From: Candidatus Multivorans thiocomprendens
GTDB lineage: Bacteria > Acidobacteriota > Thermoanaerobaculia > Multivoradales > Multivoraceae
Direction of reading: 5' to 3'
Assembly (NCBI GenBank): GCA_027493375.1
Contig: JAPVWO010000240.1
Span: 175 to 64,174, forward strand
DNA: 64,000 nt
A program made the position numbers and the translations under genes. Below are positions 11,240 to 34,633 of the stretch, one piece after another (positions within the stretch are counted from its first letter, which is position 1; each line of letters opens with the position of its first letter). Under the pieces are notes generated by a model. That model had not been told where the DNA came from. It saw nothing but the letters and a program-made list of their open reading frames with translations, and searched no databases.

Positions 11240-11271
11240 CGGCGCCTCTCGGTAGGAACTTGGAACGGAGT

Positions 11272-21305: not shown

Positions 21306-21494
21306 TCAGAGGTGCAGCCGGATGACCCTGGGAGCGTCCTCCCCGTCGAAGTGGCAGAGCACGGCGTCCCGGACCATCTCCTTCAGGTCCTCCCAGTCGT
21401 CGCCTTGCGTGAAGATGCTGTAGCCGAGCGCCTTGGCGTCGTAGCCACCATCAACCGCCTCGGTTACTTCAAAGATGATCTCGGTTGGCCTCAT
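21306..21494 (-). CDS. HicB-like (UPF0150-fold) small antitoxin-type protein
   Basis: 62 aa: IIFEVTEAVDGGYDAKALGYSIFTQGDDWEDLKEMVRDAVLCHFDGEDAPRVIRLHL matches the small HicB-like family often found next to a HicA toxin. GGAGA lies 9 nt upstream of the ATG. Confidence 0.6.
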   Translation of the reverse strand: MRPTEIIFEVTEAVDGGYDAKALGYSIFTQGDDWEDLKEMVRDAVLCHFDGEDAPRVIRLHL

Positions 21495-21571
21495 TAGGTT
21501 GTTCTCCGGCAGGCATGGAGGCTAGCAGCACGTGGCGAAGGCAGTCGATGGCGTTGGTTCAAGTGTGGAGG

Positions 21572-21703
21572 TCAGCGGTCGCCGCGGCCCCAGTCCAACA
21601 GCGCCATGACTTCCTCGTGCGGCAATCGTTGCTCCCGCGGCCTAAGTGGGAGCGCTGCGGCTACCGGCTGACCGGGCCGTGGACTCGGGAGCGACCAGCT
21701 CCC
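21572..21703 (-). pseudogene. C-terminal remnant of a Phd-type antitoxin (paralogue of 34337..34633)
   Basis: Reading directly after the hsdR TAA gives ...SPRPGQPVAAALPLRPREQRLPHEEVMALLDWGRGDR*. This parallels the C-terminus of the intact Phd at 34337..34633 (...KRPNSAAVYTRPPKEERWPDDEVMALLDAVRGER*). There is no N-terminal half and no start codon. Confidence 0.5.
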
Positions 21704-24700
21704 TTACGGCGCCTCAGCCTGATCGTACGCGCGCCTGAACACGGCCTCGGACATCCACCGCTTGAAGCCGTCGTCGTCCATGAACTGCTTGAACAGTTCG
21801 GTGTCGTCCTTCATCACGTTCTGCATCACGCGGAGCAGCGCTCTGTCGTGCTCGATGCGGGTGTTCTCGCGATCGGAGTTCCGGCGCGCGTTCCGGAAGG
21901 CCGTGTCCGAGGCGACCCTGGCTGGGATGTCGAACGCGATCATCCGCTGCACGCGGTCTTCGTCCGCCCATTCGACGCCGCCGAAGTGATCGTTGAATGC
22001 CTTGATGATGTTCGAGAGGTGGTCCAGGTCGGATTCCGGCCGGTAGCCTCCGCCGGCGGGGGGCGTCGGATCGACCTCGGCGTCCTCGTCGGGCAGGAGG
22101 ATCTTCCGGATCGCCTGCTTCTCGGCCCGGTAGCTGTCCATGTCGACCGCGTCGAGGATGCCCCGCGCCAAGTCCTCCTCCCTCGGCGCCGGGAGCTTCG
22201 GGATCAGGAAGTTCAGGAAGATCGACCGCTTCTCCCAGCCGGCGTTCGAGAACGGGAGGATGGAGGAGAGGAAGCCGTAGGCGCGCACGAACGCCTTCGC
22301 CTTGCCTTTGAAGTCGACCTGTCCGTCCTCGTCGAGTTCGCTCAGGTAGACCGCGACGCACTGGTCGAGGATCGGGTCGAGGCGGTCGCGCTCGGCGCCG
22401 TCCAGATAGCGCTCGACGAACAGGTCGATCCGCTCCGCCGAACAGACCTGCGCCGCGTCGAGGTCGGCCTGCAGGTCGTGCAGCCGGTCGGGGTCCGTCT
22501 CGTCCGCCAGGATCGTGCCGCGGTAGTAGTTCGCGAACGAGTCGCGGACGATCTCCGTGTCATTCAGGAAGTCGAGCACGAAGACGTCGTGCTTGCCGGG
22601 ATGCGCGCGGTTGAGCCGGGACAGGGTCTGCACCGCCTTGATGCCGGCGAGCGTCTTGTCGACGTACATCGTGTGCAGCAGCGGTTCGTCGTAGCCGGTC
22701 TGAAACTTGTCCGCGCAGACCAGGAGCCTGTAGGGATGTTCCTGGATCTTCGTCGCGATCTGCCTGGACGGGAAGCCGTTGAGCGAGGCTTCCGTGACCT
22801 TCGCGCCGCCGTACTCATGTTCGCCCGAGAAGGCGACGATGGCCCGGTACGGGCTCTTCCTCGCCTCCAGGCAGTCGCGCATGGAGTGGAAGTACTGGAT
22901 CGCGCGCTGGACGCCGTTCGTGACCACCATGGCCCGCGCCTCGCCGCCGATCCTCCGCGGCGCGGCGACCTGGTCGTGAAAGTGGTCGACCATGATCTCG
23001 GCCTTGAGCCGGATGGCGTGGTCGTGCCCTTCGACGAAGCGCCGCAGTTTCCGCTGCGCTTTCTTGACGTCGAACTCCGGGTCGTCCTCGACGCTCTTCG
23101 CCAGCCGGTAGTAGCTCCTGACCGGCGTGTAGTGCTTCAGCACGTCGAGAATGAAGCCCTCCTCGATCGCCTGCTTCATCGAATAGGTGTGGAAGGCGCG
23201 ACGCTTGACGGCGCCGTCGGGTTGCCGTTCGGGAACGCCGAAGAGCTCCAGCGTCTTGTTCTTGGGGGTGGCGGTGAAGGCGAAGTAGCTGGCGTTCGGC
23301 AGGAGCTTGCGCGACTCCATCAGGCGGTTGATCCGGTCCTCGTAGGTTTCCTCCTCGGCGCGGGCGCCGGCTTCGGAGAGGGCGCCCGAGACCGCGGCGC
23401 TCGTCCGGCCGCCTTGGCTGGAGTGGGCCTCGTCGATGACGATCGCGAACCGGCGTCCGCGCTGGTCGTCGCCGATGGCGTCCAGGACGTGGGGGAACTT
23501 CTGGATCGTCGTGATGACGATCTTCTTGCCGCCCTCGAGGAACTGGCGGAGGTCCGCCGAGCTGTCGGCGTGGCCGACGGTTGCCGCGACTTGGGCGTAC
23601 TGCTTGATCGTGTCCCTGATCTGGCGGTCGAGGATGACACGGTCGGTGACGACGACGATGGAGTCGAAGACCGTGCCGCCGCCGCTCCGGCTCTGCACGG
23701 CCGGGCTGCCGCCGCGCCTCTTCAGCCCGATCAGCCGGTGCGCCAGCCAGGCGATCGAGTAGCTCTTGCCGCTGCCGGCCGAGTGCTGAGTCAGGTAGCG
23801 CCTGCCGGCGCCGTACTCGGCCGCGTCGGCCAGGAGCCGGCGGACGACGTCGAGTTGGTGGTACCGCGGCCAGATCTGGGTCTTCTTCGTCCGGCCCGTC
23901 TTATCGTCCTTCGATTCGATGATCTGGGCGTAGTTTTCGATGATCTCCGTCAGGCTCTCGCGAGTCAGAATCTCGCGCCACAGGTAGTCCGCGGCCAGAC
24001 CGTCCGGGTTGGGCGGGTTGCCGGCGCCGTCGTTCCATCCTCGGTTGAACGGCAGGAACCAGGACGCCTTGCCCCGCAGATGCGTGCAGAAGCGCACCTC
24101 CCGCTCGTCCGCCGCGAAGTGGACGATGCAGCGGCCGAACTCGAACAGCTTCTCCCGCGGATTGCGGTCCTTCCGGTACTGCTCGATGGCGTCGCTGACC
24201 GTCTGCTTCGTCAGGCTGTTCTTCAACTCGAACGTGATGACCGGCAGGCCGTTGATGAACAGCGCCAGGTCGAGCGCCAGTTGGGCCCGGTCTCCGCTGT
24301 AGCGGAGCTGCCGTGTGACCGTGAAGCGGTTCAGGCCGAAGCGTTGTTGCGCCACCTCGTTGCCCTCCGACGGCGTGCCGTAGAACAGCTCCAGCTCGTG
24401 CGCGCCGTGCCCGAGGCCCTTCCGCAGCACGTCGACGGTGCCGCGCTTCGCGATCTCGCCTTGCAGCCGCGCGAGGAACTTCCGCCGCGCCGGCCCGTCC
24501 TCGTCCAGGGCCAGACCGTCCGCCGCGTCGGGCTGGGTGGCGCGGAGGAAGGCCGAGAGCTGGGCGAGGTCTACGCAGTGGTTCCGGTCGTAGTCGCGGG
24601 GGTCGCCGGCGGTCCAGCCGACAGAGGCGGGACTCGGCTCGGTCGGGTGAGGGACTTCGCCGGGCTTCGCCGGATCGCAGGGGTGCCCGGTGAGGGCCGT

Positions 24701-24745
24701 GCAGATGAGGCGCTCGAGGCCGCGTTCGGTCGTGTCGGTGGTCAC
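21704..24745 (-). CDS. hsdR: type I restriction endonuclease subunit R
   Basis: 1013 aa. Helicase motifs are present: HSAGSGKSYSIAW (Walker A), VIDEAHSSQ (DEAH-type), FAFTATP, QTGYDEP, QTLSRLNR. The N-terminal nuclease region has ...ALDLALFINGLPVITFELK. Confidence 0.95.
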   Translation of the reverse strand: MTTDTTERGLERLICTALTGHPCDPAKPGEVPHPTEPSPASVGWTAGDPRDYDRNHCVDLAQLSAFLRATQPDAADGLALDEDGPARRKFLARLQGEIAKRGTVDVLRKGLGHGAHELELFYGTPSEGNEVAQQRFGLNRFTVTRQLRYSGDRAQLALDLALFINGLPVITFELKNSLTKQTVSDAIEQYRKDRNPREKLFEFGRCIVHFAADEREVRFCTHLRGKASWFLPFNRGWNDGAGNPPNPDGLAADYLWREILTRESLTEIIENYAQIIESKDDKTGRTKKTQIWPRYHQLDVVRRLLADAAEYGAGRRYLTQHSAGSGKSYSIAWLAHRLIGLKRRGGSPAVQSRSGGGTVFDSIVVVTDRVILDRQIRDTIKQYAQVAATVGHADSSADLRQFLEGGKKIVITTIQKFPHVLDAIGDDQRGRRFAIVIDEAHSSQGGRTSAAVSGALSEAGARAEEETYEDRINRLMESRKLLPNASYFAFTATPKNKTLELFGVPERQPDGAVKRRAFHTYSMKQAIEEGFILDVLKHYTPVRSYYRLAKSVEDDPEFDVKKAQRKLRRFVEGHDHAIRLKAEIMVDHFHDQVAAPRRIGGEARAMVVTNGVQRAIQYFHSMRDCLEARKSPYRAIVAFSGEHEYGGAKVTEASLNGFPSRQIATKIQEHPYRLLVCADKFQTGYDEPLLHTMYVDKTLAGIKAVQTLSRLNRAHPGKHDVFVLDFLNDTEIVRDSFANYYRGTILADETDPDRLHDLQADLDAAQVCSAERIDLFVERYLDGAERDRLDPILDQCVAVYLSELDEDGQVDFKGKAKAFVRAYGFLSSILPFSNAGWEKRSIFLNFLIPKLPAPREEDLARGILDAVDMDSYRAEKQAIRKILLPDEDAEVDPTPPAGGGYRPESDLDHLSNIIKAFNDHFGGVEWADEDRVQRMIAFDIPARVASDTAFRNARRNSDRENTRIEHDRALLRVMQNVMKDDTELFKQFMDDDGFKRWMSEAVFRRAYDQAEAP

Positions 24746-24987
24746 GTCTCGCCCGAGGGCTCGGCGGGCGGCGGGCCTTCCTTCTCCGCGGCCGCCTTGG
24801 CTTCGGCTCGGGCCCGGTCGCGGTCGTAGAGGGCTTCCCGCGGGAGACGGTCGGAGGCGCTGAAGCCCGGGCTGGTCCTGCGGATGTCCTCGATCACTTC
24901 GCGGAGCTTGCGTGCACGCCGTTCCCGCTCCGTTTCGGTCGACGAATCGCCAGAGGACCGGTCGGTCCGTGCTCGCTCAGCCGCCAC
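24742..24987 (-). CDS. small ORF resembling only the C-terminal tail of the HicB-like antitoxin at 26617..27147
   Basis: The GTG at 24987 is in frame and overlaps the upstream stop by 11 nt. The product ends ...ETERERRARKLREVIEDIRRTSPGFSASDRLPREALYDRDRARAEAKAAAEKEG.... This parallels ...ETPLERRRRLLHKVTRDFKRRGIGLDMAENLPRSELYDRDRARAEAAG of the other protein. Its stop overlaps the hsdR ATG (ATGA). The start is uncertain. Confidence 0.35.
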   Translation of the reverse strand: MAAERARTDRSSGDSSTETERERRARKLREVIEDIRRTSPGFSASDRLPREALYDRDRARAEAKAAAEKEGPPPAEPSGET

Positions 24988-26113
24988 GCCCTGCCGCCTC
25001 GCGGCGCTTCCCCAGCATGTTCTGGTACACGCTGTCAGAAGTCGCCTTGACGTCCTCGGTGATGTCCAGCAGCGACTCGTCCTGGCCGTCGTAGGCCCGG
25101 AGAGAACCTGCTGCGTCGCGGATGGCGCTGCGCGCTTGCAGAAGGGACACAAGGAAGCGCCGGTCCATTGGTTCGGTGGCCGCGTGCGCTTGACGCAGGG
25201 CGTATCCCGCTGCCAGCAGTTCCCGTGCTTCGGCGTGCGGAAGGACTTCTCCGAGCTGCTTGATGTCGGGATTCACCGTGCGGACCGCAGGCGGTACGTT
25301 GCCTTCCGTCGAGCCGTAGATCCAGAGGAGCACGTCTCGAAGGCAGTCCAGCTTCTCGGCGGGGACGGGGTCGGGTCGCGGTTCGTCCGGCGGCCAGGGT
25401 TGCGCCAGCCCGAGGTGCTCCAGGTACTGCGAATGCGAAAGGGCGACGTACAGATGGGCGAAGCTGAACTTCGGCGTGTAGCGGTCCTCGATGTCGAACA
25501 GGTCCTCCCTGACTGCCTGCTCCAGCACGTAGACCGCAGACACCATCCGCTTGATCGTGCCGTGGCCGTCGCCGAGCGCGCTGGCGATCCGGTCGATGCC
25601 GACTTCCCCTTCCCGGTACCAGTCCGCCGCGAACCGTGCCTTGGCGTAGGCGCTCCACTTGGCGGCGCCGTTGATGTGCTTGAAGCCGATGAAGGGCCGT
25701 GTCCCCTCGCGGCTTGCTACCTGGTAGACCGTCACGTGTTCGAACGTCGGGCGGACGGCGTCCGTGAACTCAGGAATCGTGATCGTGATCTGCTTCAAGG
25801 AAGCGATCCTGCGCACCAAGTCCGGCTCGCGCAGAAGGCGAAGCGTTGCGAGGCGTCGGTTCCCTTCGAGGACGACCAGGGCGTCGCCTTCTGGCGCCGC
25901 CACCGCGACAAGCGGCTCGATGTCTAGGTAGCCGTTGGTCGAGATCGAGTGCAGGAGCTCGCCGAGTTGCGCCGAGCTGTGCAGCTGCGCGATGATCGCC
26001 TCTTCGGTGGCACCCGTGGTTGAGTCGACAAGCCGTGGGTTGTGGCGGTCGAGGCGGAGTTGCTCGACGGGCACCTTTCGGGTCGTCCCGACTTCTGACT
26101 GCACGTCGTCCAT
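24977..26113 (-). CDS. ParB/Srx N-terminal-domain protein with an uncharacterised C-terminal region
   Basis: 378 aa. The N-terminus VPVEQLRLDRHNPRL...LGELLHSISTNGYLDIEPLVAV...ALVVLEGNRRLATLRLL has the ParB/sulfiredoxin-fold layout, with (E/G)xRR-type box EGNRR. I recognise nothing in the remaining ~270 aa. Confidence 0.7.
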   Translation of the reverse strand: MDDVQSEVGTTRKVPVEQLRLDRHNPRLVDSTTGATEEAIIAQLHSSAQLGELLHSISTNGYLDIEPLVAVAAPEGDALVVLEGNRRLATLRLLREPDLVRRIASLKQITITIPEFTDAVRPTFEHVTVYQVASREGTRPFIGFKHINGAAKWSAYAKARFAADWYREGEVGIDRIASALGDGHGTIKRMVSAVYVLEQAVREDLFDIEDRYTPKFSFAHLYVALSHSQYLEHLGLAQPWPPDEPRPDPVPAEKLDCLRDVLLWIYGSTEGNVPPAVRTVNPDIKQLGEVLPHAEARELLAAGYALRQAHAATEPMDRRFLVSLLQARSAIRDAAGSLRAYDGQDESLLDITEDVKATSDSVYQNMLGKRREAAGRGG

Positions 26114-26188
26114 GACGGGGGCTATCTTAGACGGAGGGCAGCTACACTCGGTTGCTGGCTCACGCAGAGTCGCCGTGCCGGCCCGCCG

Positions 26189-26617
26189 TCACGACGAAGG
26201 CGGCTCGGCGAACGGATTGACCACCCGCACGCCGTCGTAGTCTTGGTGGTGGCTCAGATCTTCAGAGTAGACCTCCGGGCAGTTGCAGGCGCGTGCTGCG
26301 GCGAGGATCGCGCCACCCCAGTACGCGACGCCATAGCGACGACTGAGTCTCACAGCGTCCCGGAAGATGCCGACGGTCATCGGTTGCACGCGAAACTCCA
26401 GGATCGGTTCGAGAAACGCCAGGGCCTCCGTAGGAGACAGGCGCGACTTGCGGGTTGGTCGCGTGGCTTGATGGTAGAACTCCTGCAGGACCTGGACGGA
26501 CACGACGAGACCGCTCTCGGTCAGAGTGCGGATCGCCGCGTCACGCTTCCTTGCCTCCGCGGGACTGCTGGCGGCAGCGTAAAGGAGGATGTTCGTGTCG
26601 ACGAAGCGGTCCGGCAT
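26189..26617 (-). CDS. PIN-domain toxin (VapC-like ribonuclease)
   Basis: 142 aa. It has the PIN acidic quartet context (RFVDTNILLYAA ... VQVLQEF ... YWGGAILAAA ... VYSEDL). The ATG overlaps the upstream stop (TGATG). Confidence 0.85.
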   Translation of the reverse strand: MPDRFVDTNILLYAAASSPAEARKRDAAIRTLTESGLVVSVQVLQEFYHQATRPTRKSRLSPTEALAFLEPILEFRVQPMTVGIFRDAVRLSRRYGVAYWGGAILAAARACNCPEVYSEDLSHHQDYDGVRVVNPFAEPPSS

Positions 26618-27147
26618 CAGGCGGACGTGGCGCCTTCGTTGGGACTGTCGGTCCCGGCGGCTTCGGCTCGTGCCCGGTCGCGGTCGTACAACTCCGAGCG
26701 CGGAAGGTTCTCGGCCATATCGAGTCCGATCCCCCGTCGTTTGAAGTCCCTTGTCACCTTATGCAGAAGCCGCCGCCGCCGCTCGAGCGGCGTCTCACCG
26801 GAGTGGCTGCCCGGGGACTTCGCGGCCGGTGTTCCGAGGCGGTTCCTCACCGGCACCCTCTCCCATCCGGAACTGTCGAGCGTTGACGCCGAGTCCGCTC
26901 TGTCCGCCGACGTGACGGGGAATGCGCTGATCACGCCGTTCTTCCTGACAACGTCGTCGAGAGAGCCGGTCTCGGCGCAGCGCTTGAAGAAGCCAGCGAG
27001 CGCCTTCCAGAGCATCGCTCGCGCCTCGGTCTCCGTAACGCCGGACCCTTCAACCTCCAATCCTGGACATTCGGCGAGCCAGGAGTTTCCTTCCCGGTGT
27101 ACTTCCGTCCGGACCGTCACGACCCCCTCAAAGCCGGCGGGAATCAT
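26617..27147 (-). CDS. antitoxin-like protein: HicB-fold N-terminus plus a basic tail ending in the ELYDRDRARAEA motif
   Basis: I chose the ATG at 27147 because it forms an ATGA overlap with the stop of the upstream 566-aa gene. The N-terminus VVTVRTEVHREGNSWLAECPGLEVEGSGVTETEARAMLWKALAGFF is HicB/UPF0150-like. It lies directly upstream of the PIN gene. Confidence 0.6.
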   Translation of the reverse strand: MIPAGFEGVVTVRTEVHREGNSWLAECPGLEVEGSGVTETEARAMLWKALAGFFKRCAETGSLDDVVRKNGVISAFPVTSADRADSASTLDSSGWERVPVRNRLGTPAAKSPGSHSGETPLERRRRLLHKVTRDFKRRGIGLDMAENLPRSELYDRDRARAEAAGTDSPNEGATSA

Positions 27148-28844
27148 CGCGTCTCTCCAGACAGCAGACGCCATCGGACCCCTCCGGTGGCCTGGACTCT
27201 CTCGACGGGGCCGCCTTCACGCATGTGCTTTGTCAGTTGGTGGGACACGACGCGCGCGGGGTTCTTCGAGTTCGTCCTCCACCCGCCGCCGACGATGGCG
27301 TCGGTGATCTCCTTCAAAGTTCTGGCGCCCTCCGCGCGGCGCAGGTACCTCAATGACGCCTCAAGCGGCGACAGCTCGGCATAGATCGGATACGGCAACG
27401 CGTGCCAACGTTGCTCCGCCTCGTCGAGTTCCCATTGAATCGTTCTGTTGTACTTGGCAACCGATCTCCAGTCGACACCCAGGTAGTCAAGCACTCTCAG
27501 CGTGAGAATGGCCTTGGCCTTTCTCAGCACTTTCGACAAGGAGAGGATGTCGTCGTCCAACGCGACGCCACCGTGGCTCCAGGGATGACGTACGCCAAGC
27601 AGCTTCGTGGAGACTTGGCACTTCCCGTTCGAGGACGGCGTCGAGACCTCTCGCTCAATCGGGTCGAACATGCGCCGGACCCTCTCACCCGTGGATCGTC
27701 CGTTCAGTATGGCTCTGATGGTTCCCGAGTAGACGCTGCCCCAGCCATGCTCCTCGAGAACTTGGTGGATCGTCTCCTGTGCCGTTGTCGGGAGCGGCTC
27801 GTAGGGGTTGTCGGCTTCTTCCAGAATCTGGCTGTACCACAGTTCTCCGGCGCCGCAGGCGGACACGATCCGGGTGTCGAGAAACGTGCTGGTGTCCATC
27901 AAGCTGTCCAGACGAAGGAGAGTGCCTTGCGCGGCGCGGGGAATCTCCAACCACCTGCGCAGCACCGCGGCGGGGTCGCCGACGACGCCCGCCTCCTTCG
28001 GGTCCGCCGTGAATAGCGCGTCGTACTGGACTTGGCTGGGGCGGTACGGTCGTTCGCTGCCTCGTCGCATTCCCTGCGTCACGACCTCGACGCTCTGGCC
28101 GTTCACCTCGACCATGAGTTGCCGGATCGCGCACGAGCGATCGAGGGAGAACCGAAGGAACAGATGAGCGTGGTGAACACCGTACCTTGCCTGGTCCCAC
28201 GGGGCTTCTCGATCCAGGTGCAACACCGCGTAGCCGGACTCCGCGACTTCATAGGCGTTGCCCTTCTCCGTGCTGAACCCCGCCAGAAGGCCCATCGTCA
28301 TTTGCGCGCTTCCCAATCCGTCGAGATCGGCCGCGGTGGTCACCGAGACCGAGGGTGGACGGAAGCTCTCGTAGCTGGAAGGGCCGGGGCCACCGGGATT
28401 CAGCCAGCCTTCGATGCCTTCGGCAACCCAACTGATCCGGCTGCACAGGAGTTCCTGGTCCGGTGCCAGGGCCACTCCTATGTAGGCGCTGTTGACGGTA
28501 AACACGACTTGTCGTGGCTGCTGCAGCACGCCGACCGTCAGGAGGTGGCAGTCGTCGAGTGTGACCTCGGCGTCCGTGACAGTTCGGCCGGAGACGGTCT
28601 TGCCGGAGACAACGCCGCTCAGGCGGCCGTGAGCCCCGTTGAGGTACCACGGGAGCGGCACGCTTGGAAGTGGCATGTCCAGGGCTTCGCCAGGGGAGCG
28701 GTAGTTCTGGTCCTGATTGATGACCTCAAGCTGCATTTCGCCGCTGGGTTCCATCGTCAGTCTGCCGGGGAGTTTCTCCGTGTCCTCGCCGGGGGGCCAG
28801 AACCAGCCGAGGAGTTCTTGAGACTTGGTGCCGGTGCGTGACAT
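27144..28844 (-). CDS. ApeA-like HEPN-domain protein with a C-terminal winged-helix (HARE-HTH-like) extension
   Basis: 566 aa. The N-terminus ELLGWFWPPGEDTEKLPGRLTMEPSGEMQLEV resembles the ApeA N-terminal domain pattern (G.FWLP....(G)xL....G...L). There are Rx4H candidates VRHPWSHGG (C-terminal half) and ARYGVHH. The tail RAEGARTLKEITDAIVGGGWRTNSKNPARVVSHQLTKHMREGGPVERV...VRWRL looks like a HARE-HTH. Codon usage is visibly AT-richer than the surrounding window. Confidence 0.55.
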   Translation of the reverse strand: MSRTGTKSQELLGWFWPPGEDTEKLPGRLTMEPSGEMQLEVINQDQNYRSPGEALDMPLPSVPLPWYLNGAHGRLSGVVSGKTVSGRTVTDAEVTLDDCHLLTVGVLQQPRQVVFTVNSAYIGVALAPDQELLCSRISWVAEGIEGWLNPGGPGPSSYESFRPPSVSVTTAADLDGLGSAQMTMGLLAGFSTEKGNAYEVAESGYAVLHLDREAPWDQARYGVHHAHLFLRFSLDRSCAIRQLMVEVNGQSVEVVTQGMRRGSERPYRPSQVQYDALFTADPKEAGVVGDPAAVLRRWLEIPRAAQGTLLRLDSLMDTSTFLDTRIVSACGAGELWYSQILEEADNPYEPLPTTAQETIHQVLEEHGWGSVYSGTIRAILNGRSTGERVRRMFDPIEREVSTPSSNGKCQVSTKLLGVRHPWSHGGVALDDDILSLSKVLRKAKAILTLRVLDYLGVDWRSVAKYNRTIQWELDEAEQRWHALPYPIYAELSPLEASLRYLRRAEGARTLKEITDAIVGGGWRTNSKNPARVVSHQLTKHMREGGPVERVQATGGVRWRLLSGETR

Positions 28845-29142
28845 GGGCGGGTAGAAGCAGAAGTGAGTGCTCGTGCTTGGAGGAGTGCTTGTGCCTGCCG
28901 ACTCAACCGCGATGCGCGCTGAAGGCGTCTGGCGGGACCTGCCGAAACGAGTAAAGGGACGCTCGCTGCAACCGCCCGGAGAGGCAAAGGAGAACCTCTG
29001 CCGGCTGGAGCGCGCTTCGGGGACGCGACCGCCGTTGCTTGTGCGCCGGTGGGTCTGGGTGCCGAGGCATCATCTGGTCGGCCATCGCGGCTCTGATTCT
29101 GCTTCTATGGGGTGAGGCTGTGCTCAAGCTGAAGCGGGCCTG

Positions 29143-30552
29143 TCACCGCTCCGGCAGCGTCGTCGTCGCTTCGCGCACGTCGAGCTTTCCGGTAACCACA
29201 TCGGCAATCAGGCGTTCGCGCCACTCCCGAAGAACGGCGGCCTGTCGGCGGGCACGGGCGGTGGCTGCGGTCGTCGTGGTCGTGACGTGGTGAACGAAAC
29301 GTGAGATGGCGGTCTGCTCGGCCTCGGGAGGGATGGCTATCGGTAGATCTCGCCAGCGCTCGGTTGGAAGCCTGCGAGTCCCGTGCCCTGCTTCGTCGAT
29401 CAGGGGAAAGAGGCCGTCATGAGCGCAATCGAGCAACGACGCCATGTAGGTTGCGTTGAGCGCCGCGCGGGGTCGCAGGGCCTTCATGTCCTGGTTGATC
29501 GTCACCGGTGCCGTCGTCCTGGCGATGGGCACTCTGCGGGCGAGGATCATCCCGCGGACCACCATGAGCACGGCGGGAGGTTGTATCAACCGAAGTGGGG
29601 TTTCGGCGAGCGCGGCCTCCGTGACCCGCAGGCGCGAATCGTGGATCACCATCGTCTTCATGTCCTTCGGAGTGACCCATGGAACATCGCCGTTCCAGAA
29701 GCGACGGTCTTCCATTCTGGGCGTCATTCCTCCCGAGATGGAGGCGCATTGCCGGATCTTCCTCACCTTCCAATGGGCCGGCTTGTGGCCCAACCACTCC
29801 GCGCCGGAGTCCTTGTAGGCCGGATAGGGCCGGCCGGTGCGCACATCGATCCGGCCGGTTACGGCCTGATCAATGACGGCCTGCTTCTGCTCCTCCAGCG
29901 TCGCGATCAGCTTCTCCTTGGCTCGGATGTACCGCCGGATGCGCCGGTCGAGGTAGTCGAGGAACCGAACGATTGCAGTCTGTTCTTCCGGCGGGGGAAT
30001 CGCGACAGGTACTGCCGACAACCTCGTTTCGGCGATTGCCGGGTATGCGACGCCCACCGACTGGGCCATGACACAGTCGGTGAAGGGCTGGCTGCGGCAC
30101 AGATGGCCGACGAAGGCGGGCTCGGTTTGCGCTCGGGGGGTAAGGACTGCAAAACCGGTTGAGGCGACAAGGTCGGTTCCTCTCGCCGCCACGTGCCAGA
30201 CTGCCTTCAGGTACGTTCTCACGGTGGAGACGATGGTGTCTCCGTTACGAAGGACACGCCTCGCTCTCGACGGAGAAGCGCCGAACCTCATGCGTACCGG
30301 TTCGCGAACCAGGACTCCTGTCTGGACTGCGCCAATGTCGATGTAGTGGAACTCGTAGTCGGGGTCGGTGTCCTCCGGGAGAACGGTCTGGTTCACCCGG
30401 AGCCAGTCCTTGATGCGCCGCACCTCCCAGTGCGCAGGCACATCCCCGAGCCACTCCACGCCGGAGGCCCTGGTCTCCACGTATGCGGGCAGATTTGGGA
30501 CGTTTGGGACCGTCGCCGCGTCGCCTTCAAGAAGCGGACCCGGTTGCATCAC
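29143..30552 (-). CDS. hsdS: type I restriction-modification specificity subunit S
   Basis: 469 aa. It has two target-recognition halves, each introduced by (G)xEWLG(D/H)(V/K)PAHW(E/K)VR(R/K)I. They are separated and terminated by the conserved helices IPPPEEQTAIVRFLDYLDRRIRRYI and IPPEAEQTAISRFV. Confidence 0.9.
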   Translation of the reverse strand: MMQPGPLLEGDAATVPNVPNLPAYVETRASGVEWLGDVPAHWEVRRIKDWLRVNQTVLPEDTDPDYEFHYIDIGAVQTGVLVREPVRMRFGASPSRARRVLRNGDTIVSTVRTYLKAVWHVAARGTDLVASTGFAVLTPRAQTEPAFVGHLCRSQPFTDCVMAQSVGVAYPAIAETRLSAVPVAIPPPEEQTAIVRFLDYLDRRIRRYIRAKEKLIATLEEQKQAVIDQAVTGRIDVRTGRPYPAYKDSGAEWLGHKPAHWKVRKIRQCASISGGMTPRMEDRRFWNGDVPWVTPKDMKTMVIHDSRLRVTEAALAETPLRLIQPPAVLMVVRGMILARRVPIARTTAPVTINQDMKALRPRAALNATYMASLLDCAHDGLFPLIDEAGHGTRRLPTERWRDLPIAIPPEAEQTAISRFVHHVTTTTTAATARARRQAAVLREWRERLIADVVTGKLDVREATTTLPER

Positions 30553-30798
30553 TACGCCGTCGCCGAGAGTCCGGGCGGTTGAAGTGGCGCGGTGTGGCGG
30601 GCTGCCACTCGCGACCGGCTCACGAGATCGCCCCCTTTCGTCGCGCCGGCTGGCCCAGCATCGCTACCCCTCCTGCGGCGCGTTACCCGAACGCGGGCCG
30701 CGAGTCCCGTTCCGCGTAGGGAGGGCGGGTCGACTTGCAACCGCGCACTTCCGCCGTGAGTCTCCCGCTGCAGCAGCCACGCTTGGCCGTTCAAGTTC

Positions 30799-31503
30799 CT
30801 ACGTTCCGGGGTCCGGAGGCGAGACGCCGAACTCGCTCGGCTTGACCTTGCGCGAACGCTCCCACACACGGCGGAGGATGGGGTCCGTGATCTCCAGGTT
30901 GTTCAGCCAGTCCACCCGCTCCTCGGGAGTCATGGCGTTCAGTTTCCGACTGATCCGGTCCCTCTGCTCGCGCTGGAAGGCGACGCAGTCGAAGCTCTTG
31001 TCGTTCGGGTCGCGAAAGTTCTCGCCCAGGATGGCCGGGGGCACGTACATCTCGACCCGGGGATGACCGAGTTCCCGGTTGACGGCGTTGAACCTGGGCC
31101 TGCGGTAGAAGTTCAGTAGGTGCTTGTGGTTCCAGTTCGCAAGCGTGTCGACGTTTGCGAGCGTGGCGAAGGCGACGTGCAGGCCGACGGAGCGCACGGC
31201 CGCGTCCACCGTGCCCGCCTCGACGTAACGGTCGGCGAGTTCCTCGGCTGCTGCCGACGGTTCCAGGAACTCCGAGTGCTCTTGCGGCACCGTGCCCGGC
31301 AGGCCTCTCGCGGCCTCGGTCGCCGCGTCCAACTCGCCCGCGACCGCACCCGACAGGACGAGGGTCATGTCGCCGGCACGGAACCGTTCGAGCAGCTCCC
31401 GGGACGACTCCCTGATCCAGTACCTCGCGTCCTCGCAGGCGGAGAACACGGAGGTGTCCACGTACACGCGGTACGGCCGTCGCTCGGACGAAGCGGAGGA
31501 CAT
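30799..31503 (-). CDS. PIN-like domain fused to a small helical antitoxin-like C-terminal domain
   Basis: 234 aa. The PIN-like part reads RVYVDTSVFSACED...GLHVAFATLANVDTLANWNHKHLLNFYRRPRFNAVNRELGHPRVEMYVPP. It runs without a stop into KSFDCVAFQREQRDRISRKLNAMTPEERVDWLN, a module that elsewhere occurs as a separate small protein (recalled from memory, not searched). Confidence 0.7.
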   Translation of the reverse strand: MSSASSERRPYRVYVDTSVFSACEDARYWIRESSRELLERFRAGDMTLVLSGAVAGELDAATEAARGLPGTVPQEHSEFLEPSAAAEELADRYVEAGTVDAAVRSVGLHVAFATLANVDTLANWNHKHLLNFYRRPRFNAVNRELGHPRVEMYVPPAILGENFRDPNDKSFDCVAFQREQRDRISRKLNAMTPEERVDWLNNLEITDPILRRVWERSRKVKPSEFGVSPPDPGT

Positions 31504-31589
31504 GGGTGTGGCGACTCTCAGCGCCTACAGGTTGTCGCTTCGCGCTGAGGCGCCCTCCGGCTCGGCCGGAGCGACGTGAGTGCCGTCGG

Positions 31590-32014
31590 TCATGCCGAGT
31601 GGCGGCGACCCTGGGAGAGTTGGTCCCGTGCGCTGGCATCGCGAGCCCGCAGGCGCTCGACCAAACGCCGTAGCTTCGGGTCTGTCGGCAGGTAGCTGCG
31701 CATCCAGGCGCCGATTTCCTCGCCGGACATGTTCTCGAACTTCTTCCCGAGCTTCTTCCGTTGGGCGCGCTGAAAGGCGACGCAGTCGAAGCTCTTTCCT
31801 CGGGCACGGTGTCGAGCACTTCCCTGACCCGCTTCGGGGCGTCGTTCAGTTCGTCTATCGTGAAGGGCGAGATCACGAGGCTCAATTCGCCTCGCCGGAA
31901 GCGCTCGAAGAGTCGCCGAGACGGCTCCCGAAACTCGTCCTCCTCGCAGCCGCCGAAGACGGAGGTGTCGACGTACACGCGGCGTGTCCTAGCCTCGGGC
32001 CGACCGGGCGCCAT
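31590..32014 (-). pseudogene. disrupted paralogue of the 30799..31503 PIN-plus-small-domain gene
   Basis: The ATG at 32014 gives MAPGRPEARTRRVYVDTSVFGGCEEDEFREPSRRLFERFRRGELSLVISPFTIDELNDAPKRVREVLDTVPEE. At about 31796-31798 homology jumps to another frame: KSFDCVAFQRAQRKKLGKKFENMSGEEIGAWMRSYLPTDPKLRRLVERL...*, with stop at 31590-31592. The second half of the PIN domain is absent. The block cgctg(a/g)aaggcgacgcagtcgaagctctt is shared with the intact copy. Confidence 0.55.
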
Positions 32015-33901
32015 GCCGCCCATGATCTCGGCCAGCAGGCCCTCGGTCTGCGTCTCCAGCGCCAGGATGTCGGCCTGGATCTCCGCCAGGGGCCGCATCG
32101 GTTCGGGCTTGTAGAAGTAGCGGTTGAAGCTGATCTCGTAGCCGGTCTTCACGGTCTCGGGGTTGTACCACGCGTCGGGTGCCCAGGGCAGGACCTCGCG
32201 CCGCAGGAAGGCCTCGATGCCGCCGTCCTCCTGGAGCGGGATCTGCTCGGTATCCCGCAGACTCGTGTCCGGCTCGTACTCGACGACGGCCGTCCGGCCG
32301 TCGACCTTCGCCTCGAACAGGCCGCGCAGCGGGTCGGCGGCGACTCCCCGCTGGTGGACCTTCCGGATCACCGGCGGCGCCTCGTCGGCGCGGACGCCGG
32401 AGGCCTTGAGTTCGCGGATCTCGGCAGCCTTGTAAGCGCGGCCTCCGTCGATTCCCTCGATGCGTAGCGGCCGCTCGACGGTGACCTTCCAGTAGCCGAA
32501 GGCTTCGTTGTCGAAGACCTTGCTCTCTTCGGTCTCCTCGAAGGCGAGGAAGACGTCGCAGATGCGGCCGATGTCCTCCGCGCCGAGTTCGCAGTTCTTC
32601 TTGCCGAGGTTCTTGCGGAGCGGCTGGAACCGCTTCGTGGCGTCGATGAGCTGCACCCTGCCCTGGCGATGCTCCGGCTTCCGGTTCGTCAGCACCCAGA
32701 CGTAGGTGGCGATGCCGGTGTTGTAGAACATGTTGAGCGGCAGAGCGACGACGGCCTCCAGCCAGTCGTTCTCGATGATCCAGCGGCGGATGTTGCTCTC
32801 GCCCTGGCCCGCGTCGCCGGTGAACAGGGAACTGCCGTTGTGGACCTCGGCGACCCGGCTGCCGAGCGGCGTGCTCCGCTTCATCTTGGCGAGCTTGTTG
32901 GCCAGGAACAGCATCTGGCCGTCGCTGCTGCGGGTGACGAGGGAGTACTCCGGGTCGCCGCCGTGCTCGATCAGGAAGCGCGGGTCGCGCATGTCCTTCT
33001 TGCCGCCCATGCGGGCGAGATCCGTCTTCCAGCTCTTGCCGTAGGGCGGGTTGGAGAGCATGAAGTCGAACTCGCGGGCCGGGAAGGCGTCGTTCGAGAG
33101 CGTGGAGTGCTCCGGTCCGCCGACGATGTTGTCGGCCGCTTGGCCCTCGCCCTTGAGCAACAGGTCGGCCTTGCAGATGGCGTAGGTCTCGGCGTTGATC
33201 TCCTGGCCGAAGAGGTGCGTGGAGACCTCCTTGCCGCGCTCGGCGGCGAGTCCCTGGAGCACGTCTTCGGCCACCGTGAGGATGCCGCCGGTGCCGCAGG
33301 CGCCGTCGTAGAGGGTGTAGGTGGCGGACCGGAGCCGGTCGGCCACGGGCAGGAAGACGAGGTTCGCCATCAGCTTGACCGCGTCGCGCGGAGTGAAGTG
33401 TTCGCCGGCCTCCTCGTTGTTCTCCTCGTTGAAGCGGCGGATCAGCTCCTCGAAGATCGAGCCCATGCCGTGGTTGTCGAGGCCTGGGTGCTTCACGGCG
33501 CCGTCGCCGTTCATCATCGGTTTGGGCCCCAGGTTGATGTCGGGCGAGGTGAGCTTCTCGATCAGCGTGCCGAGTGCGTCGGCCCTTGAGAGCCGCGGGA
33601 TCTGATTGCGGAACTCGAAGTTGTCGAGGATGTCCTGGACGTTCGGAGAGAAGCCGTCGAGCCAGGCCTCGAAGTCGGCCCGGAGCCGCTGCCGGCCGGC
33701 GCGGGCGCGCAGGTCGCGCAAGGTGTAGTTCACCTGCATGACGTGCTGCTTGCGCGGTTCCAGTACCGCGTCGAGCCGTCGCAGCAGGGTCATCGGCAGG
33801 ATGACGTCGCGGTACTTCCCGCGGACGTAGAGGTCGCGGAGCACGTCGTCGGCGATGCCCCAGATGTAGCCCGCGACCCAGTTCAGGGAGGCATTGTCCA
33901 C
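32015..33901 (-). CDS. hsdM: type I restriction-modification methyltransferase subunit M (no stop codon of its own)
   Basis: GTG at 33901 lies 1 nt after the vapC stop. The HsdM N-domain reads NWVAGYIWGIADDVLRDLYVRGKYRDVILPMTLLRRLDAVLEP. It has EHFTPRD, motif I YDGACGTGG and motif IV FMLSNPPYG. The C-terminus is ...ADILALETQTEGLLAEIMGG, after which the frame continues straight into the ATG of the PIN remnant. Confidence 0.9.
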
Positions 33902-33902
33902 C

Positions 33903-34340
33903 TCAGGTTTCCCACTCGGCCGGCGCCGCCTCAAGCCCGAGGGCGGCGGCGTTCGAGCGAATGCGACGGTCGAAGGTGAGGACCCGCAACTCCGTCCGGA
34001 ACTCGCGGACCCGGAGCGCGGTGGCCAGATGCAGTGCATCCAGGGTGCGGAGCGGTTCCCTTGGGAAGGGTTGTCGCGCGCGGTCCACGATGACGGCGCT
34101 GATCCGGAACACGCTCCACGAAGCCGTCGCTGCTTCGAGACGCGCGCGCGCCGCTTCAGAGCGCCGGGCGTTCAGGCGGCCGGCCGCTTTCGCTTGGTGG
34201 ATGCCGCGTTCGCACTCGAGGATCGTCAACTCCGAGGCGAAGATTGCAGTCGCGGAGTCAAGGAGACGGAGCGCTTCCTCCCCGGACGGTTCTCCAAACA
34301 ACCAGGAAAGGACCGCGCTGGTCTCGGCGTAGAGCGTCAC
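33903..34340 (-). CDS. vapC: PIN-domain toxin VapC
   Basis: 145 aa. It has a PIN layout (TLYAETSAVLSWL ... ASELTILE ... TLDALHLATAL ... VLTFDRR). The GTG start overlaps the Phd stop (GTGA). Confidence 0.85.
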   Translation of the reverse strand: MTLYAETSAVLSWLFGEPSGEEALRLLDSATAIFASELTILECERGIHQAKAAGRLNARRSEAARARLEAATASWSVFRISAVIVDRARQPFPREPLRTLDALHLATALRVREFRTELRVLTFDRRIRSNAAALGLEAAPAEWET

Positions 34341-34633
34341 CTCTCGCCGCGAACCGCGTCCAGGAGCGCCATCACTTCATCGTCCGGCCACCTCTCCTCC
34401 TTGGGCGGGCGCGTGTAGACCGCCGCCGAGTTCGGTCGCTTGGCTAGACGGACTTCCCCCGCCCGCGCCAGACGCAACAGTGCGTCGTCCGGGTCCAGGC
34501 CGTGCGGCGCGTGAGGCACCAGGTCGGCGACCGGTGCGCCGCGGCTGGTGACGGTGACCCGCTCGCCGGACTGGGCCATGCGCACGTATTCGCTGAGGCG
34601 GTTCTTCAATACGCGGATGCCGACGGTCGTCAT
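34337..34633 (-). CDS. Phd/YefM-type antitoxin
   Basis: 98 aa. MTTVGIRVLKNRLSEYVRMAQSGERVTVTSRGAPVADLVP is a canonical Phd/YefM N-terminus. It is the first gene of the minus-strand string leading into hsdM. Confidence 0.85.
   Translation of the reverse strand: MTTVGIRVLKNRLSEYVRMAQSGERVTVTSRGAPVADLVPHAPHGLDPDDALLRLARAGEVRLAKRPNSAAVYTRPPKEERWPDDEVMALLDAVRGER

What the first reader, a model, noticed from the sequence alone, without database searches (positions are those of the whole stretch)
21306..34633. One type I R-M system stretched over 13 kb by nested defence and TA cargo, all on one strand and largely translationally coupled
Gene order on the minus strand is:
1. Phd
2. VapC
3. hsdM
4. 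disrupted PIN unit
5. PIN-plus-small-domain unit
6. hsdS
7. ApeA-like HEPN
8. HicB-like antitoxin
9. PIN
10. ParB/Srx protein
11. 81-aa ORF
12. hsdR
13. TA debris
14. HicB-like

The junctions are tight:
- Phd/VapC overlap as GTGA.
- The VapC stop is 1 nt before the hsdM GTG.
- The HEPN protein and its antitoxin overlap as ATGA.
- The antitoxin and PIN overlap as TGATG.
- The ParB protein and the small ORF overlap by 11 nt.
- The small ORF and hsdR overlap as ATGA.

Parts of the island are visibly less GC-rich than the flanks, especially 27.2-28.9 kb. Type I loci are known hot spots for embedded defence genes. Here the density is unusual, as is the fact that hsdM is translationally chained to a TA pair and hsdR to unknown genes. 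No integrase or transposase is present to explain mobility.
Basis: partly seen in the sequence, partly recalled or inferred. Interest (0 to 1): 0.7.

Follow-up and report, generated by a model that had tools for sequence, protein, structure and literature searches.

The report
Type I restriction operon carrying nested cargo
This is a chromosomal type I restriction-modification operon whose gene junctions hold toxin-antitoxin and abortive-infection genes; that layout is already documented and is normal for this enzyme family, and the methylase gene in this copy looks damaged.

Summary
All 14 listed elements lie on the minus strand at the stated coordinates. The tight junctions are real, with one slip: the 81-aa ORF and hsdR overlap as GTGA, not ATGA.

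- Among 68 complete loci of the same hsdM-hsdS-hsdR family, 59 carry more than 500 bp of cargo at a junction. The median is 2.7 kb, the maximum 9.2 kb, and this window has about 5.8 kb.
- Same-strand embedding in type I systems is published: Payne 2024, RptR/DarTG2, TgvAB and PrrC.
- Relatives at the same chromosomal site keep hsdM and hsdR but swap cargo.

- The "disrupted PIN unit" is the C-terminal PIN domain of a conserved HsdM-PIN fusion, cut here by a window-specific 284-nt deletion. hsdM also lacks 84 nt, so R-M activity is doubtful.
- The 81-aa ORF is a decayed VapB antitoxin.
- The 176-aa protein is the antitoxin of the downstream PIN. It has a HicB-like N-domain that recurrently follows ApeA homologues.

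No cargo maps to a complete named system.

Verdict: new member of a known kind, moderate-low interest.

The parts
34337..34633 (-). Phd/YefM-type antitoxin (98 aa), first gene of the chain
   Evidence: PF02604 5e-8 and TIGR01552 3e-10. GTGA overlap with the next gene. The same Phd-VapC-hsdM order occurs in L007 and L167.
33903..34340 (-). VapC PIN toxin (145 aa)
   Evidence: PF01850 9e-15. Its stop lies 1 nt before the hsdM GTG.
31976..33901 (-). hsdM core (type I methyltransferase subunit). It carries a window-specific in-frame 84-nt deletion at 33728/33729 and has no stop codon of its own.
   Evidence: HsdM_N plus N6_Mtase; PADLOC MTase_I 7e-218. NPPYG motif seen in the translation. Deletion found by comparison with L001-L005.
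31797..31975 (-). First 60 codons of the PIN domain fused in frame to HsdM. The rest was removed by a 284-nt deletion at 31796.
   Evidence: 100% identical to residues 1-60 of the 147-aa PIN domain of the 817-aa HsdM-PIN protein of L001. The fusion is conserved in L007, L008, L015, L022 and L028.
31590..31796 (-). Remnant of the small partner ORF (77 aa in L001). Here it has lost its start and lies out of frame with hsdM.
   Evidence: tblastn gives 100% to residues 10-77 of the L001 77-aa ORF. Frame translations.
30799..31503 (-). Single-chain PIN plus small-domain protein (234 aa). Its PIN domain lacks one catalytic Asp.
   Evidence: No Pfam hit. AF2 pLDDT 79.9, and the top Foldseek hits are M. 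tuberculosis VapC toxins. The 'DALH' Asp is replaced throughout this clade.
29143..30552 (-). hsdS specificity subunit (469 aa, two target-recognition domains)
   Evidence: PF01420 with two stretches; PADLOC Specificity_I 4e-80. The second TRD is shared with L007 at 84% nt identity; the first is not.
27144..28844 (-). ApeA-family HEPN protein (566 aa) with a C-terminal winged-helix-like extension
   Evidence: ApeA_NTD1 2e-10. Homologues carry PF18739 HEPN_Apea. R419 and H424 (RHPWSH) are invariant in 31 sequences.
26617..27147 (-). Chimeric antitoxin (176 aa): a HicB-like N-domain plus a VapB-type C-terminal tail
   Evidence: The N-terminal 115 aa are 39-50% identical to the ORFs that follow ApeA and precede HicA in other genomes. 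The tail is homologous to VapB antitoxins of PIN142-type toxins. ATGA and TGATG overlaps.
26189..26617 (-). VapC-type PIN toxin (142 aa)
   Evidence: PF01850 3e-11. Homologues are paired with RHH VapB directly 5' of hsdR in L010 and L022.
24977..26113 (-). ParB/Srx-like N-domain protein (378 aa) of a widespread stand-alone family
   Evidence: PADLOC PD-Lambda-5_A models match residues 10-165 only, 2e-21; PDC-M38A 8e-15. 2348 representative relatives, typically 360-400 aa and matching full length.
24742..24987 (-). 81-aa ORF: a decayed VapB antitoxin (RHH domain lost, tail kept). It overlaps the hsdR start.
   Evidence: Tail is 52% identical to the 176-aa protein, with a 30-nt DNA repeat at 97%. 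Full-length RHH forms occur in relatives. GTGA overlap with hsdR.
21704..24745 (-). hsdR restriction subunit (1013 aa), apparently intact
   Evidence: HSDR_N, SWI2_SNF2, ResIII and T1R_D3-like; TIGR00348 3e-55. Full-length match to relatives.
21572..21670 (-). Phd C-terminal fragment (TA debris)
   Evidence: tblastn 55% over 33 aa, E 7e-5. 88% nt identity to the phd 3' ends of L007 and L087. In L087 an intact Phd-VapC pair sits here.
21306..21494 (-). Orphan HicB-type antitoxin (62 aa); its hicA partner is missing
   Evidence: Homologues in L009, L010, L041 and L061 are followed by an overlapping classic HicA ORF. No significant Pfam hit.

Best explanation
This is a chromosomal type I R-M operon in the order hsdM-hsdS-hsdR. 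It belongs to a widely transferred family with a roughly 660-aa HsdM and a roughly 1013-aa HsdR. The operon acts as a scaffold for embedded cargo.

**How the cargo arrives (inferred).** hsdM and hsdR are strongly conserved, so they can anchor homologous recombination with incoming hsd loci. The segment between them, hsdS plus whatever sits at the M-S and S-R junctions, is then replaced or extended without any integrase.

**What the cargo is.**
- Ribonuclease-type abortive-infection or addiction modules: an HsdM-fused PIN domain with a small partner; a catalytically degenerate single-chain PIN unit; an ApeA-family HEPN protein coupled to a HicB-like/VapB-tail antitoxin and its PIN toxin; and Phd-VapC at the head of the operon.
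- One ParB-like protein of unknown role.
- Decay products: the 81-aa VapB remnant, a Phd fragment and an orphan HicB.

**Why the junctions are tight.** They reflect cassette-wise insertion of already compact TA-type modules into an operon.

**State of this copy.** hsdM carries two private deletions, so methylation and restriction are probably impaired here. Sibling strains keep the intact version.

**Shown:** gene content, junctions, cargo variability in relatives and the deletions.
**Inferred:** the recombination mechanism, the defence roles of the cargo and the loss of function.
For: - Gene identities.
- Family-wide cargo: 59 of 68 loci carry more than 500 bp at a junction, and 38 of 68 at both.
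- Cargo in relatives is dominated by defence families: GmrSD, Schlafen/AlbA_2, AAA_21, AriA-like, DarT/Macro, SIR2/HerA, ThsB-TIR and PIN.
- The same chromosomal site (DUF1501 ... SDF) holds the same hsd backbone with different cargo:
  - L007 has DarT plus a truncated DarG.
  - L008 and L087 have no S-R cargo.
  - L088 has ParB plus other genes.
  - L167 has the same order as the window.
- Composition: hsdM and hsdR have GC3 0.93-0.94, while the central block has 0.77-0.82.
- Recombination signal: L003 differs from the window by 50 mismatches in 1.9 kb of hsdM but by only 9 in the other 11.4 kb. TRD1 but not TRD2 of hsdS differs from L007.
- No tRNA, repeat or integrase boundaries.
- Literature: embedded genes in type I R-M with 96.7% co-orientation; DarTG2 between hsdS and hsdR, proposed as a recombination hot spot; TgvAB; PIN toxins coupled to type I subunits; ApeA embedded in R-M operons.
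Against: - No recombination event was observed directly. Flank-anchored exchange is inferred from patterns.
- L167 keeps the same cargo order at 83% ApeA identity, so the arrangement can be stable and vertically inherited rather than in rapid flux.
- No cargo gene has a tested function, and PADLOC names none of them as a complete system.
- The two deletions lack microhomology and occur only in the window. An artefact of the source assembly cannot be fully excluded.
Confidence: 0.72

Rival explanations
1. The locus is an integrated, co-regulated two-layer immune operon. The R-M complex is the first line of defence. The RNases (the HsdM-tethered PIN, and ApeA with its TA pair) are held latent and fire when a phage disables the R-M complex, as PrrC does with EcoprrI. 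The Phd and VapB-type antitoxins at the heads of hsdM and hsdR act as transcriptional controllers.
For: - The HsdM-PIN fusion, with catalytic residues kept and a small partner ORF always following, is conserved in five or more lineages across phyla and in about 35 database proteins.
- An orphan but intact RHH antitoxin directly 5' of hsdR is retained in L088.
- Phd-VapC-hsdM coupling is conserved in L007 and L167.
- Precedents exist in PrrC/EcoprrI and in RptR as a small regulator heading a type I-DarTG island.
Against: - In this window the fused PIN is truncated, the 81-aa ORF has lost its DNA-binding domain, and hsdM is damaged. The proposed circuitry cannot be operating here.
- The fused PIN has been lost repeatedly: L005 has a stop codon, L167 has no PIN, and the window has a deletion.
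- Most family members have unrelated cargo.
- There is no experimental link.
Confidence: 0.18
2. The two hsdM deletions are assembly or consensus artefacts of the record the window comes from. The real locus would then equal L001: an intact 817-aa HsdM-PIN plus a 77-aa ORF, and a functional R-M system.
For: Five independent contigs from other samples and MAGs are otherwise 99.98-100% identical and lack both deletions.
Against: - The deletions are blunt, with 0-1 nt of microhomology, which graph-based misassembly does not usually produce.
- One deletion is exactly in frame at 84 nt.
- Both fall in the same gene.
- Other structural variants of this same segment exist in the population, in L005 and L167.
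Confidence: 0.15
3. The 13-kb region is a classical mobile genomic island that inserted as one unit by site-specific recombination.
For: GC is lower than in the flanks. Phd sequences occur at both ends, with an intact gene at 34.6 kb and a fragment at 21.6 kb.
Against: - There is no integrase or transposase, no flanking tRNA, and no long direct repeats at the borders. The only ARAGORN call lies inside coding sequence.
- hsdM and hsdR have host-like GC3.
- Related species carry the backbone at the same site with different interiors.
- No clean empty site was found.
Confidence: 0.05

Closest known systems
Defence genes embedded in type I R-M operons ('guilt by embedding', Payne et al. 2024 bioRxiv 10.1101/2024.01.29.577857; the Makarova 2011 defence islands)
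   Same: [quoted passage not shown] It has a mixed known and unknown defence-like content and no mobility genes.
   Different: The particular cargo set here is not among named systems. PADLOC gives only partial or weak hits: PD-Lambda-5_A N-domain, PDC-M38A and PDC-S58. TA modules also sit 5' of hsdM and hsdR, not only between subunits.
RRDM island of EPEC (RptR-hsdM-hsdS-DarTG2-hsdR; PMC12255303)
   Same: A small DNA-binding-type gene heads the operon and a TA system lies between hsdS and hsdR. The closest relative, L007, even carries DarT at that position.
   Different: The head genes here are a Phd-VapC pair, not RptR. The S-R cargo is ApeA, a TA pair and ParB rather than DarTG. Regulation is untested.
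PrrC/EcoprrI (an anticodon nuclease encoded inside a type Ic hsd operon and masked by the R-M complex)
   Same: A latent RNase is genetically, and in the HsdM-PIN fusion physically, attached to a type I R-M enzyme.
   Different: PrrC is an ABC-ATPase-HEPN protein and a separate polypeptide. Here the domain is a VapC-type PIN fused to HsdM with a small partner ORF. No activation mechanism is known, and the window copy is truncated.
ApeA (single-gene HEPN abortive-infection system; the ApeA/BMEI1217 family of Anantharaman 2013)
   Same: The ApeA_NTD1 domain is present with an invariant Rx4H HEPN motif. ApeA is already noted as embedded in R-M operons.
   Different: - No PADLOC ApeA model matches.
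- It has an extra C-terminal winged-helix-like 70 aa.
- It is followed, overlapping, by a HicB-like antitoxin and a toxin. This three-gene cassette also occurs in Hma systems and elsewhere.
PD-Lambda-5 (two-gene system, Vassallo 2022)
   Same: The N-terminal ParB-like region of the 378-aa protein matches PD-Lambda-5_A models.
   Different: - Only residues 10-165 match profiles of 430-530 positions.
- No B-component hit occurs in any neighbour.
- The protein belongs to its own stand-alone family of about 375 aa.
VapBC and HicAB type II toxin-antitoxin modules
   Same: The antitoxin comes first with overlapping stop and start codons. PIN toxins are present, along with an RHH or Phd antitoxin or a remnant of one.
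   Different: - One antitoxin is a chimera of a HicB-like N-domain and a VapB tail.
- One VapB and one HicB are orphans.
- One PIN is fused to HsdM.
- One PIN is fused to its putative partner domain and lacks a catalytic Asp.

Membership tests
Type I restriction-modification system | HsdM with an N-terminal HsdM_N domain and an N6-adenine methylase domain carrying the NPPY motif | tested here: met
   PF12161 4e-12 and PF02384 7e-49; PADLOC MTase_I 7e-218. 'SNPPYGKSW' is visible in the translation.
Type I restriction-modification system | HsdS with two target-recognition domains | tested here: met
   PF01420 with two stretches; full-length PADLOC Specificity_I 4e-80.
Type I restriction-modification system | HsdR with a PD-(D/E)xK nuclease N-domain and an SF2 helicase motor | tested here: met
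   HSDR_N 3e-18, SWI2_SNF2 3e-25 and ResIII; TIGR00348 3e-55. The 'FELK' and 'DEAH' motifs appear in the translation.
Type I restriction-modification system | All three subunit genes intact | tested here: not met
   hsdM lacks 28 codons of its N-domain that are present in every relative. Its reading frame runs through a truncated PIN domain into about 330 out-of-frame codons. hsdS and hsdR are full length.
Type I restriction-modification system | Sequence-specific methylation and ATP-dependent restriction | not testable with these tools
   This needs methylome data or expression assays.
Embedded defence cargo (Payne 2024 definition) | Genes located between the genes of a multi-gene defence system, on the same strand, and not mobilome genes | tested here: met
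   Seven intact cargo ORFs lie between hsdM and hsdR, all on the minus strand, with no transposase or integrase domains. The criterion and the 96.7% co-orientation figure come.
ApeA (HEPN abortive infection) | ApeA N-terminal domain 1 | tested here: met
   PF18862 1.9e-10, residues 10-254. All 40 database homologues but one carry it.
ApeA (HEPN abortive infection) | C-terminal HEPN domain with a conserved Rx4-6H motif | tested here: met
   R419 and H424 are invariant in 31 homologues. About ten homologues have PF18739 HEPN_Apea hits. The window protein itself gave no PF18739 hit at E<=0.01.
ApeA (HEPN abortive infection) | Single-gene anti-phage activity | not testable with these tools
   In 5 of 8 other genomic contexts the gene is coupled to a HicB-like ORF plus a toxin.
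VapBC toxin-antitoxin (176-aa protein plus 142-aa PIN) | A PIN-domain toxin preceded by an overlapping antitoxin whose C-terminal tail is of VapB type | tested here: met
   PIN 3e-11. TGATG overlap. The tail is homologous to RHH-VapB proteins paired with PIN142-type toxins in L010, L015 and L022.
HicAB toxin-antitoxin | A HicA toxin gene adjacent to the HicB antitoxin | tested here: not met
   tblastn finds no HicA in the window. Homologues of both the 62-aa ORF and the 176-aa N-domain do have HicA next to them elsewhere.
HicAB toxin-antitoxin | HicB/UPF0150 fold of the antitoxin N-domain | tested here: inconclusive
   - Only sub-threshold hints: PF21748 at E 0.17, and PDB 2yzt at E about 0.9 for both profiles.
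- hhalign probability is 2%.
- Single-sequence AF2 gives pLDDT 45.
PD-Lambda-5 | Full-length A component | tested here: not met
   Only residues 10-165 of 378 match profiles of 430-530 positions. The protein's own family is about 375 aa long.
PD-Lambda-5 | B component encoded next to A | tested here: not met
   No PD-Lambda-5_B hit for the 81-aa ORF, PIN142, hsdR or the L015 neighbours.
PrrC-type R-M-masked RNase | RNase associated with the type I R-M enzyme | tested here: inconclusive
   Covalent HsdM-PIN fusion occurs in sibling contigs and five other lineages. In the window the PIN domain is truncated after 60 residues.
PrrC-type R-M-masked RNase | ABC-ATPase plus HEPN architecture, activated by anti-restriction peptides | tested here: not met
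   The domain is a VapC-type PIN. Activation is not testable here.

The most novel reading that the evidence does not exclude
Two recurrent cargo architectures seen through this locus may be undescribed functional units.

1. **HsdM-PIN with a small partner.** A type I methyltransferase subunit is covalently fused to a catalytically competent VapC-type PIN domain and is always followed by a 65-77-aa partner ORF. This could be a PrrC-like 'guard' in which the RNase is tethered to the R-M complex and released when a phage inhibits it.

2. **ApeA, HicB-like antitoxin, toxin.** This three-gene cassette has HicA or PIN as its toxin and hops between type I R-M, Hma and type III-like loci. In it the HicB-like protein might control ApeA as well as its own toxin.
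Probability: 0.2. Interest if true: 0.6.

Novelty: new member of a known kind. Interest (0 to 1): 0.33.

Why it matters
As an island it adds little. Type I operons as scaffolds for co-oriented defence and TA cargo are already described, and in this hsd family they are the rule.

Its value is as a well-resolved natural series: the same chromosomal site and the same backbone, with cargo that differs between strains and species. That series shows:
- cargo turnover without mobility genes;
- TA modules decaying into orphan antitoxin stubs that stay coupled to hsd genes;
- repeated loss of a PIN domain fused to HsdM.

The HsdM-PIN fusion and the ApeA-HicB-like-toxin cassette are concrete, testable candidates for how R-M and abortive-infection layers are wired together.

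Tried and rejected
- **PD-Lambda-5 membership for the ParB-like protein.** Rejected: only the N-domain matches and there is no B component.
- **The 81-aa ORF as a novel hsdR-coupled gene or a ParB partner.** Rejected: it is a VapB remnant found 5' of hsdR without ParB in L007, and ParB occurs without it in L015.
- **Site-specific island.** No integrase was found and no border repeats beyond chance-level short matches. The ARAGORN tRNA-Thr at 26590-26687 lies inside coding sequence and is judged a false positive. Rfam gave nothing.
- **Promoter and terminator scan.** It found 0 promoters and no minus-strand terminators, which is uninformative for this high-GC organism.
- **PDB sequence searches** for ParB378, ApeA, the 234-aa and the 176-aa proteins gave nothing significant.
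- **HicB fold of the 176-aa protein.** hhalign against the HicB-type 62-aa family gave 2% probability. Single-sequence AF2 gave pLDDT 45, so no fold search was run. This remains inconclusive.
- **Empty-site search anchored on the SDF gene** in metagenomes. It found variants of the island but no clean empty site. L089 lacks hsd genes, but DUF1501 gave no hit there either.
- **Microhomology at the two deletions.** None was found.
- **Habitat of the source organism.** A sponge symbiont is suspected from the MAG names of relatives, but this could not be established.

Full report
**1. The observation**

The window is about 68% GC, so raw ORF lists are noisy. A frame-specific GC3 plot picks out a single run of minus-strand genes from 34633 to 21306.
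- Phd/YefM antitoxin
- VapC PIN toxin
- HsdM (HsdM_N plus N6_Mtase; PADLOC MTase_I 7e-218)
- HsdS with two TRDs
- a 566-aa protein with ApeA_NTD1
- a 142-aa PIN
- a 378-aa protein whose first 165 residues match PADLOC PD-Lambda-5_A models
- HsdR (HSDR_N plus SF2 motor)

The junctions read from the sequence are as stated, with one exception: the 81-aa ORF and hsdR overlap as GTGA, not ATGA. Seven of the eleven junctions are overlaps or a 1-nt spacer. The hsdM-PIN junction has no stop codon at all. Four gaps of 75-298 nt remain.

GC dips to 0.63-0.64 at 27-29 kb, against 0.68-0.70 in the flanks. By GC3, hsdM and hsdR (0.93-0.94) look like host genes (mean 0.87). hsdS, ApeA, the 176-aa gene and PIN142 sit at 0.77-0.78.

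**2. What the unlabelled pieces are**

*The 234-aa protein.* It has no Pfam hit. An AlphaFold model built from 34 homologues (pLDDT 79.9) matches M. tuberculosis VapC toxins in the PDB (5x3t_B, E 2e-5, target TM 0.69), followed by three low-confidence helices. In this single-chain clade the third catalytic Asp ('DALH') is replaced, so the PIN domain is probably inactive.

*The 'disrupted PIN unit'.* It is not an independent gene.
- Five near-identical contigs from other samples (L001-L004, L006) have an 817-aa HsdM with a complete 147-aa PIN domain fused in frame, followed by an overlapping 77-aa ORF.
- The same stop-less fusion plus small ORF occurs in L007 and L008 (Thermoanaerobaculia), L015 (Latescibacterota), L022 (Pseudohongiella) and L028 (Acidobacteria).
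- About 35 database proteins span the junction, two of them with precomputed N6_Mtase plus PIN domains.
- The window differs from L001 by only two mismatches and two deletions. One is 84 nt, in frame, inside the HsdM N-domain. The other is 284 nt inside the fused PIN domain; it shifts the frame and lets the hsdM frame run stop-free to 30791.
- Other variants exist. L005 has a 670-aa HsdM with its own stop and a single 239-aa unit. L167 has a 662-aa HsdM followed directly by the small ORF.

*The 81-aa ORF.* It shares its C-terminal tail (…LYDRDRARAEA) with the 176-aa protein, including a 30-nt stretch at 97% identity.
- Relatives show the full-length form: an RHH VapB antitoxin plus a PIN142-type VapC immediately 5' of hsdR (L010, L022).
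- Decayed or orphan forms occur in L088, L016, L011, L007 and the window.

*The 176-aa protein.*
- Its tail marks it as the antitoxin of the downstream PIN142.
- Its N-terminal 115 residues are 39-50% identical to the 111-118-aa ORFs that overlap the stop of ApeA homologues in four other genomic contexts. Those ORFs are followed there by HicA (PF07927, 7e-17).
- The HicB fold itself is not demonstrated. Profile hints are sub-threshold, hhalign gives 2%, and the single-sequence model has pLDDT 45.

*The 62-aa ORF.* It is HicB-type by context: homologues are followed by a classic HicA. In the window it is an orphan.

*The stretch between hsdR and the 62-aa ORF.* It holds a Phd C-terminal fragment. 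In L087 an intact Phd-VapC pair occupies that position.

*ApeA.* Membership is supported by NTD1, by HEPN_Apea hits in homologues, and by an invariant R-x4-H motif.

*The ParB-like protein.* It belongs to a large stand-alone family of about 375 aa, with 2348 representatives. It is not PD-Lambda-5.

**3. Comparison with relatives**

A scan of one genome per species with HsdM returned 598 or more relatives, and 80 loci were examined.
- Gene order M-S-R is constant.
- Of 68 complete loci, 59 have more than 500 bp at the M-S or S-R junction, and 38 have it at both.
- Median total cargo is 2.7 kb and the maximum is 9.2 kb. The window's roughly 5.8 kb is matched or exceeded by 7 of the 68.
- 143 plus-strand cargo ORFs from these loci hit mainly defence families: GmrSD, Schlafen/AlbA_2 with HATPase_c_4, AAA_21, AAA_15/AriA, M78, Macro/DarT, DUF1016, HerA/SIR2, ThsB-TIR and PIN.

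At the same chromosomal site, between the DUF1501 gene and the SDF transporter gene, the backbone is kept but the interior differs:
- L167 has the same order as the window (ApeA 83% identical).
- L007 has DarT, a truncated DarG and the VapB stub.
- L008 and L087 have hsdS next to hsdR.
- L088 has other genes plus ParB and an intact orphan VapB.

Within the population, L003 shows a divergent tract confined to hsdM. hsdS shares one TRD but not the other with L007. No integrase, border repeats, genuine tRNA or Rfam element marks the ends.

**4. Mechanism**

The best-supported reading is a scaffold model. The conserved hsdM and hsdR genes provide homology for recombination with incoming hsd loci. 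The segment between them, hsdS with its neighbours, is exchanged or extended. Compact TA-type cassettes keep their tight junctions when they land.

The cargo is mostly RNase-based (PIN, HEPN) abortive-infection or addiction modules and their decay products.

The gene content, the variability and the deletions are shown. The recombination route, the defence roles and the functional loss of hsdM are inferred.

**5. Relation to what is known**

- Embedding of co-oriented genes in type I R-M, BREX, DISARM and Hma systems is described, with 96.7% co-orientation.
- DarTG2 between hsdS and hsdR, headed by a small repressor, is characterised, and the site was proposed as a recombination hot spot.
- TgvAB is another embedded pair.
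- PIN toxins coupled to type I subunits and ApeA in R-M operons were noted in 2017 and 2013.
- PrrC is the classic R-M-masked RNase.

The island is therefore a new member of a known kind.

Two sub-features were not found in the literature searched: the conserved HsdM-PIN fusion with its small partner, and the ApeA-HicB-like-toxin cassette. That cassette also sits inside Hma systems.

**6. Verdict**

- Novelty is low for the island and moderate for the two cargo architectures.
- Interest is 0.33.

Noticed in passing
window 31797-33901; L001:1845-4298; L007:9968-12457; L008, L015, L022, L028 at about 10001-12450: HsdM is fused in frame to a VapC-type PIN domain, giving proteins of 812-829 aa. 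Catalytic residues are kept, and an overlapping 65-77-aa ORF ('KKFDCVxFxRExRxR...') always follows. The fusion is conserved across several phyla and has been lost or truncated repeatedly.
   Followed up: partly
window 33728/33729 and 31796: Two deletions (84 nt in frame, 284 nt frameshifting) are the only indels against otherwise 99.98-100% identical contigs. Both fall in hsdM-PIN, and they have 0-1 nt of microhomology.
   Followed up: partly
L168:9001-11300, L170/L171:9001-11080, L173:8001-10110, L175:8001-10080: ApeA homologues are followed, with a 1-4-nt overlap, by a HicB-like ORF of 111-118 aa and then by HicA. In L170, L171 and L175 this cassette is embedded in an Hma system, between the DUF1156 methylase and the DUF499 ATPase.
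   Followed up: partly
window 30799-31503 and homologues P0002-P0059: In the single-chain PIN plus small-domain clade, the 'DALH' catalytic Asp is replaced by V, A or G. The clade is probably a pseudo-nuclease.
   Followed up: partly
L003:2102-4034 versus window 33728-31796: There are 50 mismatches in 1.9 kb of hsdM but only 9 in the remaining 11.4 kb. This looks like a recombination tract confined to hsdM.
   Followed up: no
L007:700-5660 and L007:14714-15903: The closest other species has a second, fragmentary hsdM-PIN with several small-ORF copies upstream of the intact operon. Between hsdS and hsdR it has DarT with a truncated macro-domain (DarG) ORF.
   Followed up: partly
window 29150-29985 versus L007:13782-14617: hsdS shares its second target-recognition domain with L007 (84% nt identity) but not its first. 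This is consistent with TRD swapping.
   Followed up: no
window 19316-21253 (-): One 645-aa ORF combines a sodium:dicarboxylate symporter domain with a Cu/Zn superoxide dismutase domain. Relatives match only residues 1-410, so the fusion, or a read-through, seems specific to this lineage.
   Followed up: no
window 26590-26687 (+): ARAGORN calls a 98-nt tRNA-Thr (CGT) on the opposite strand, inside the coding sequence of the 176-aa and PIN142 genes. It is almost certainly a false positive.
   Followed up: no
window 60539-60658 (+): A second Phd-like N-terminal segment (42% identity over 40 aa) lies elsewhere in the window.
   Followed up: no
L088:661-5214 (-): A 1517-aa ORF with an AAA ATPase domain lies on the opposite strand between hsdS and the ParB gene in a sibling strain. 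It would be a rare counter-oriented embedded gene, if it is real.
   Followed up: no
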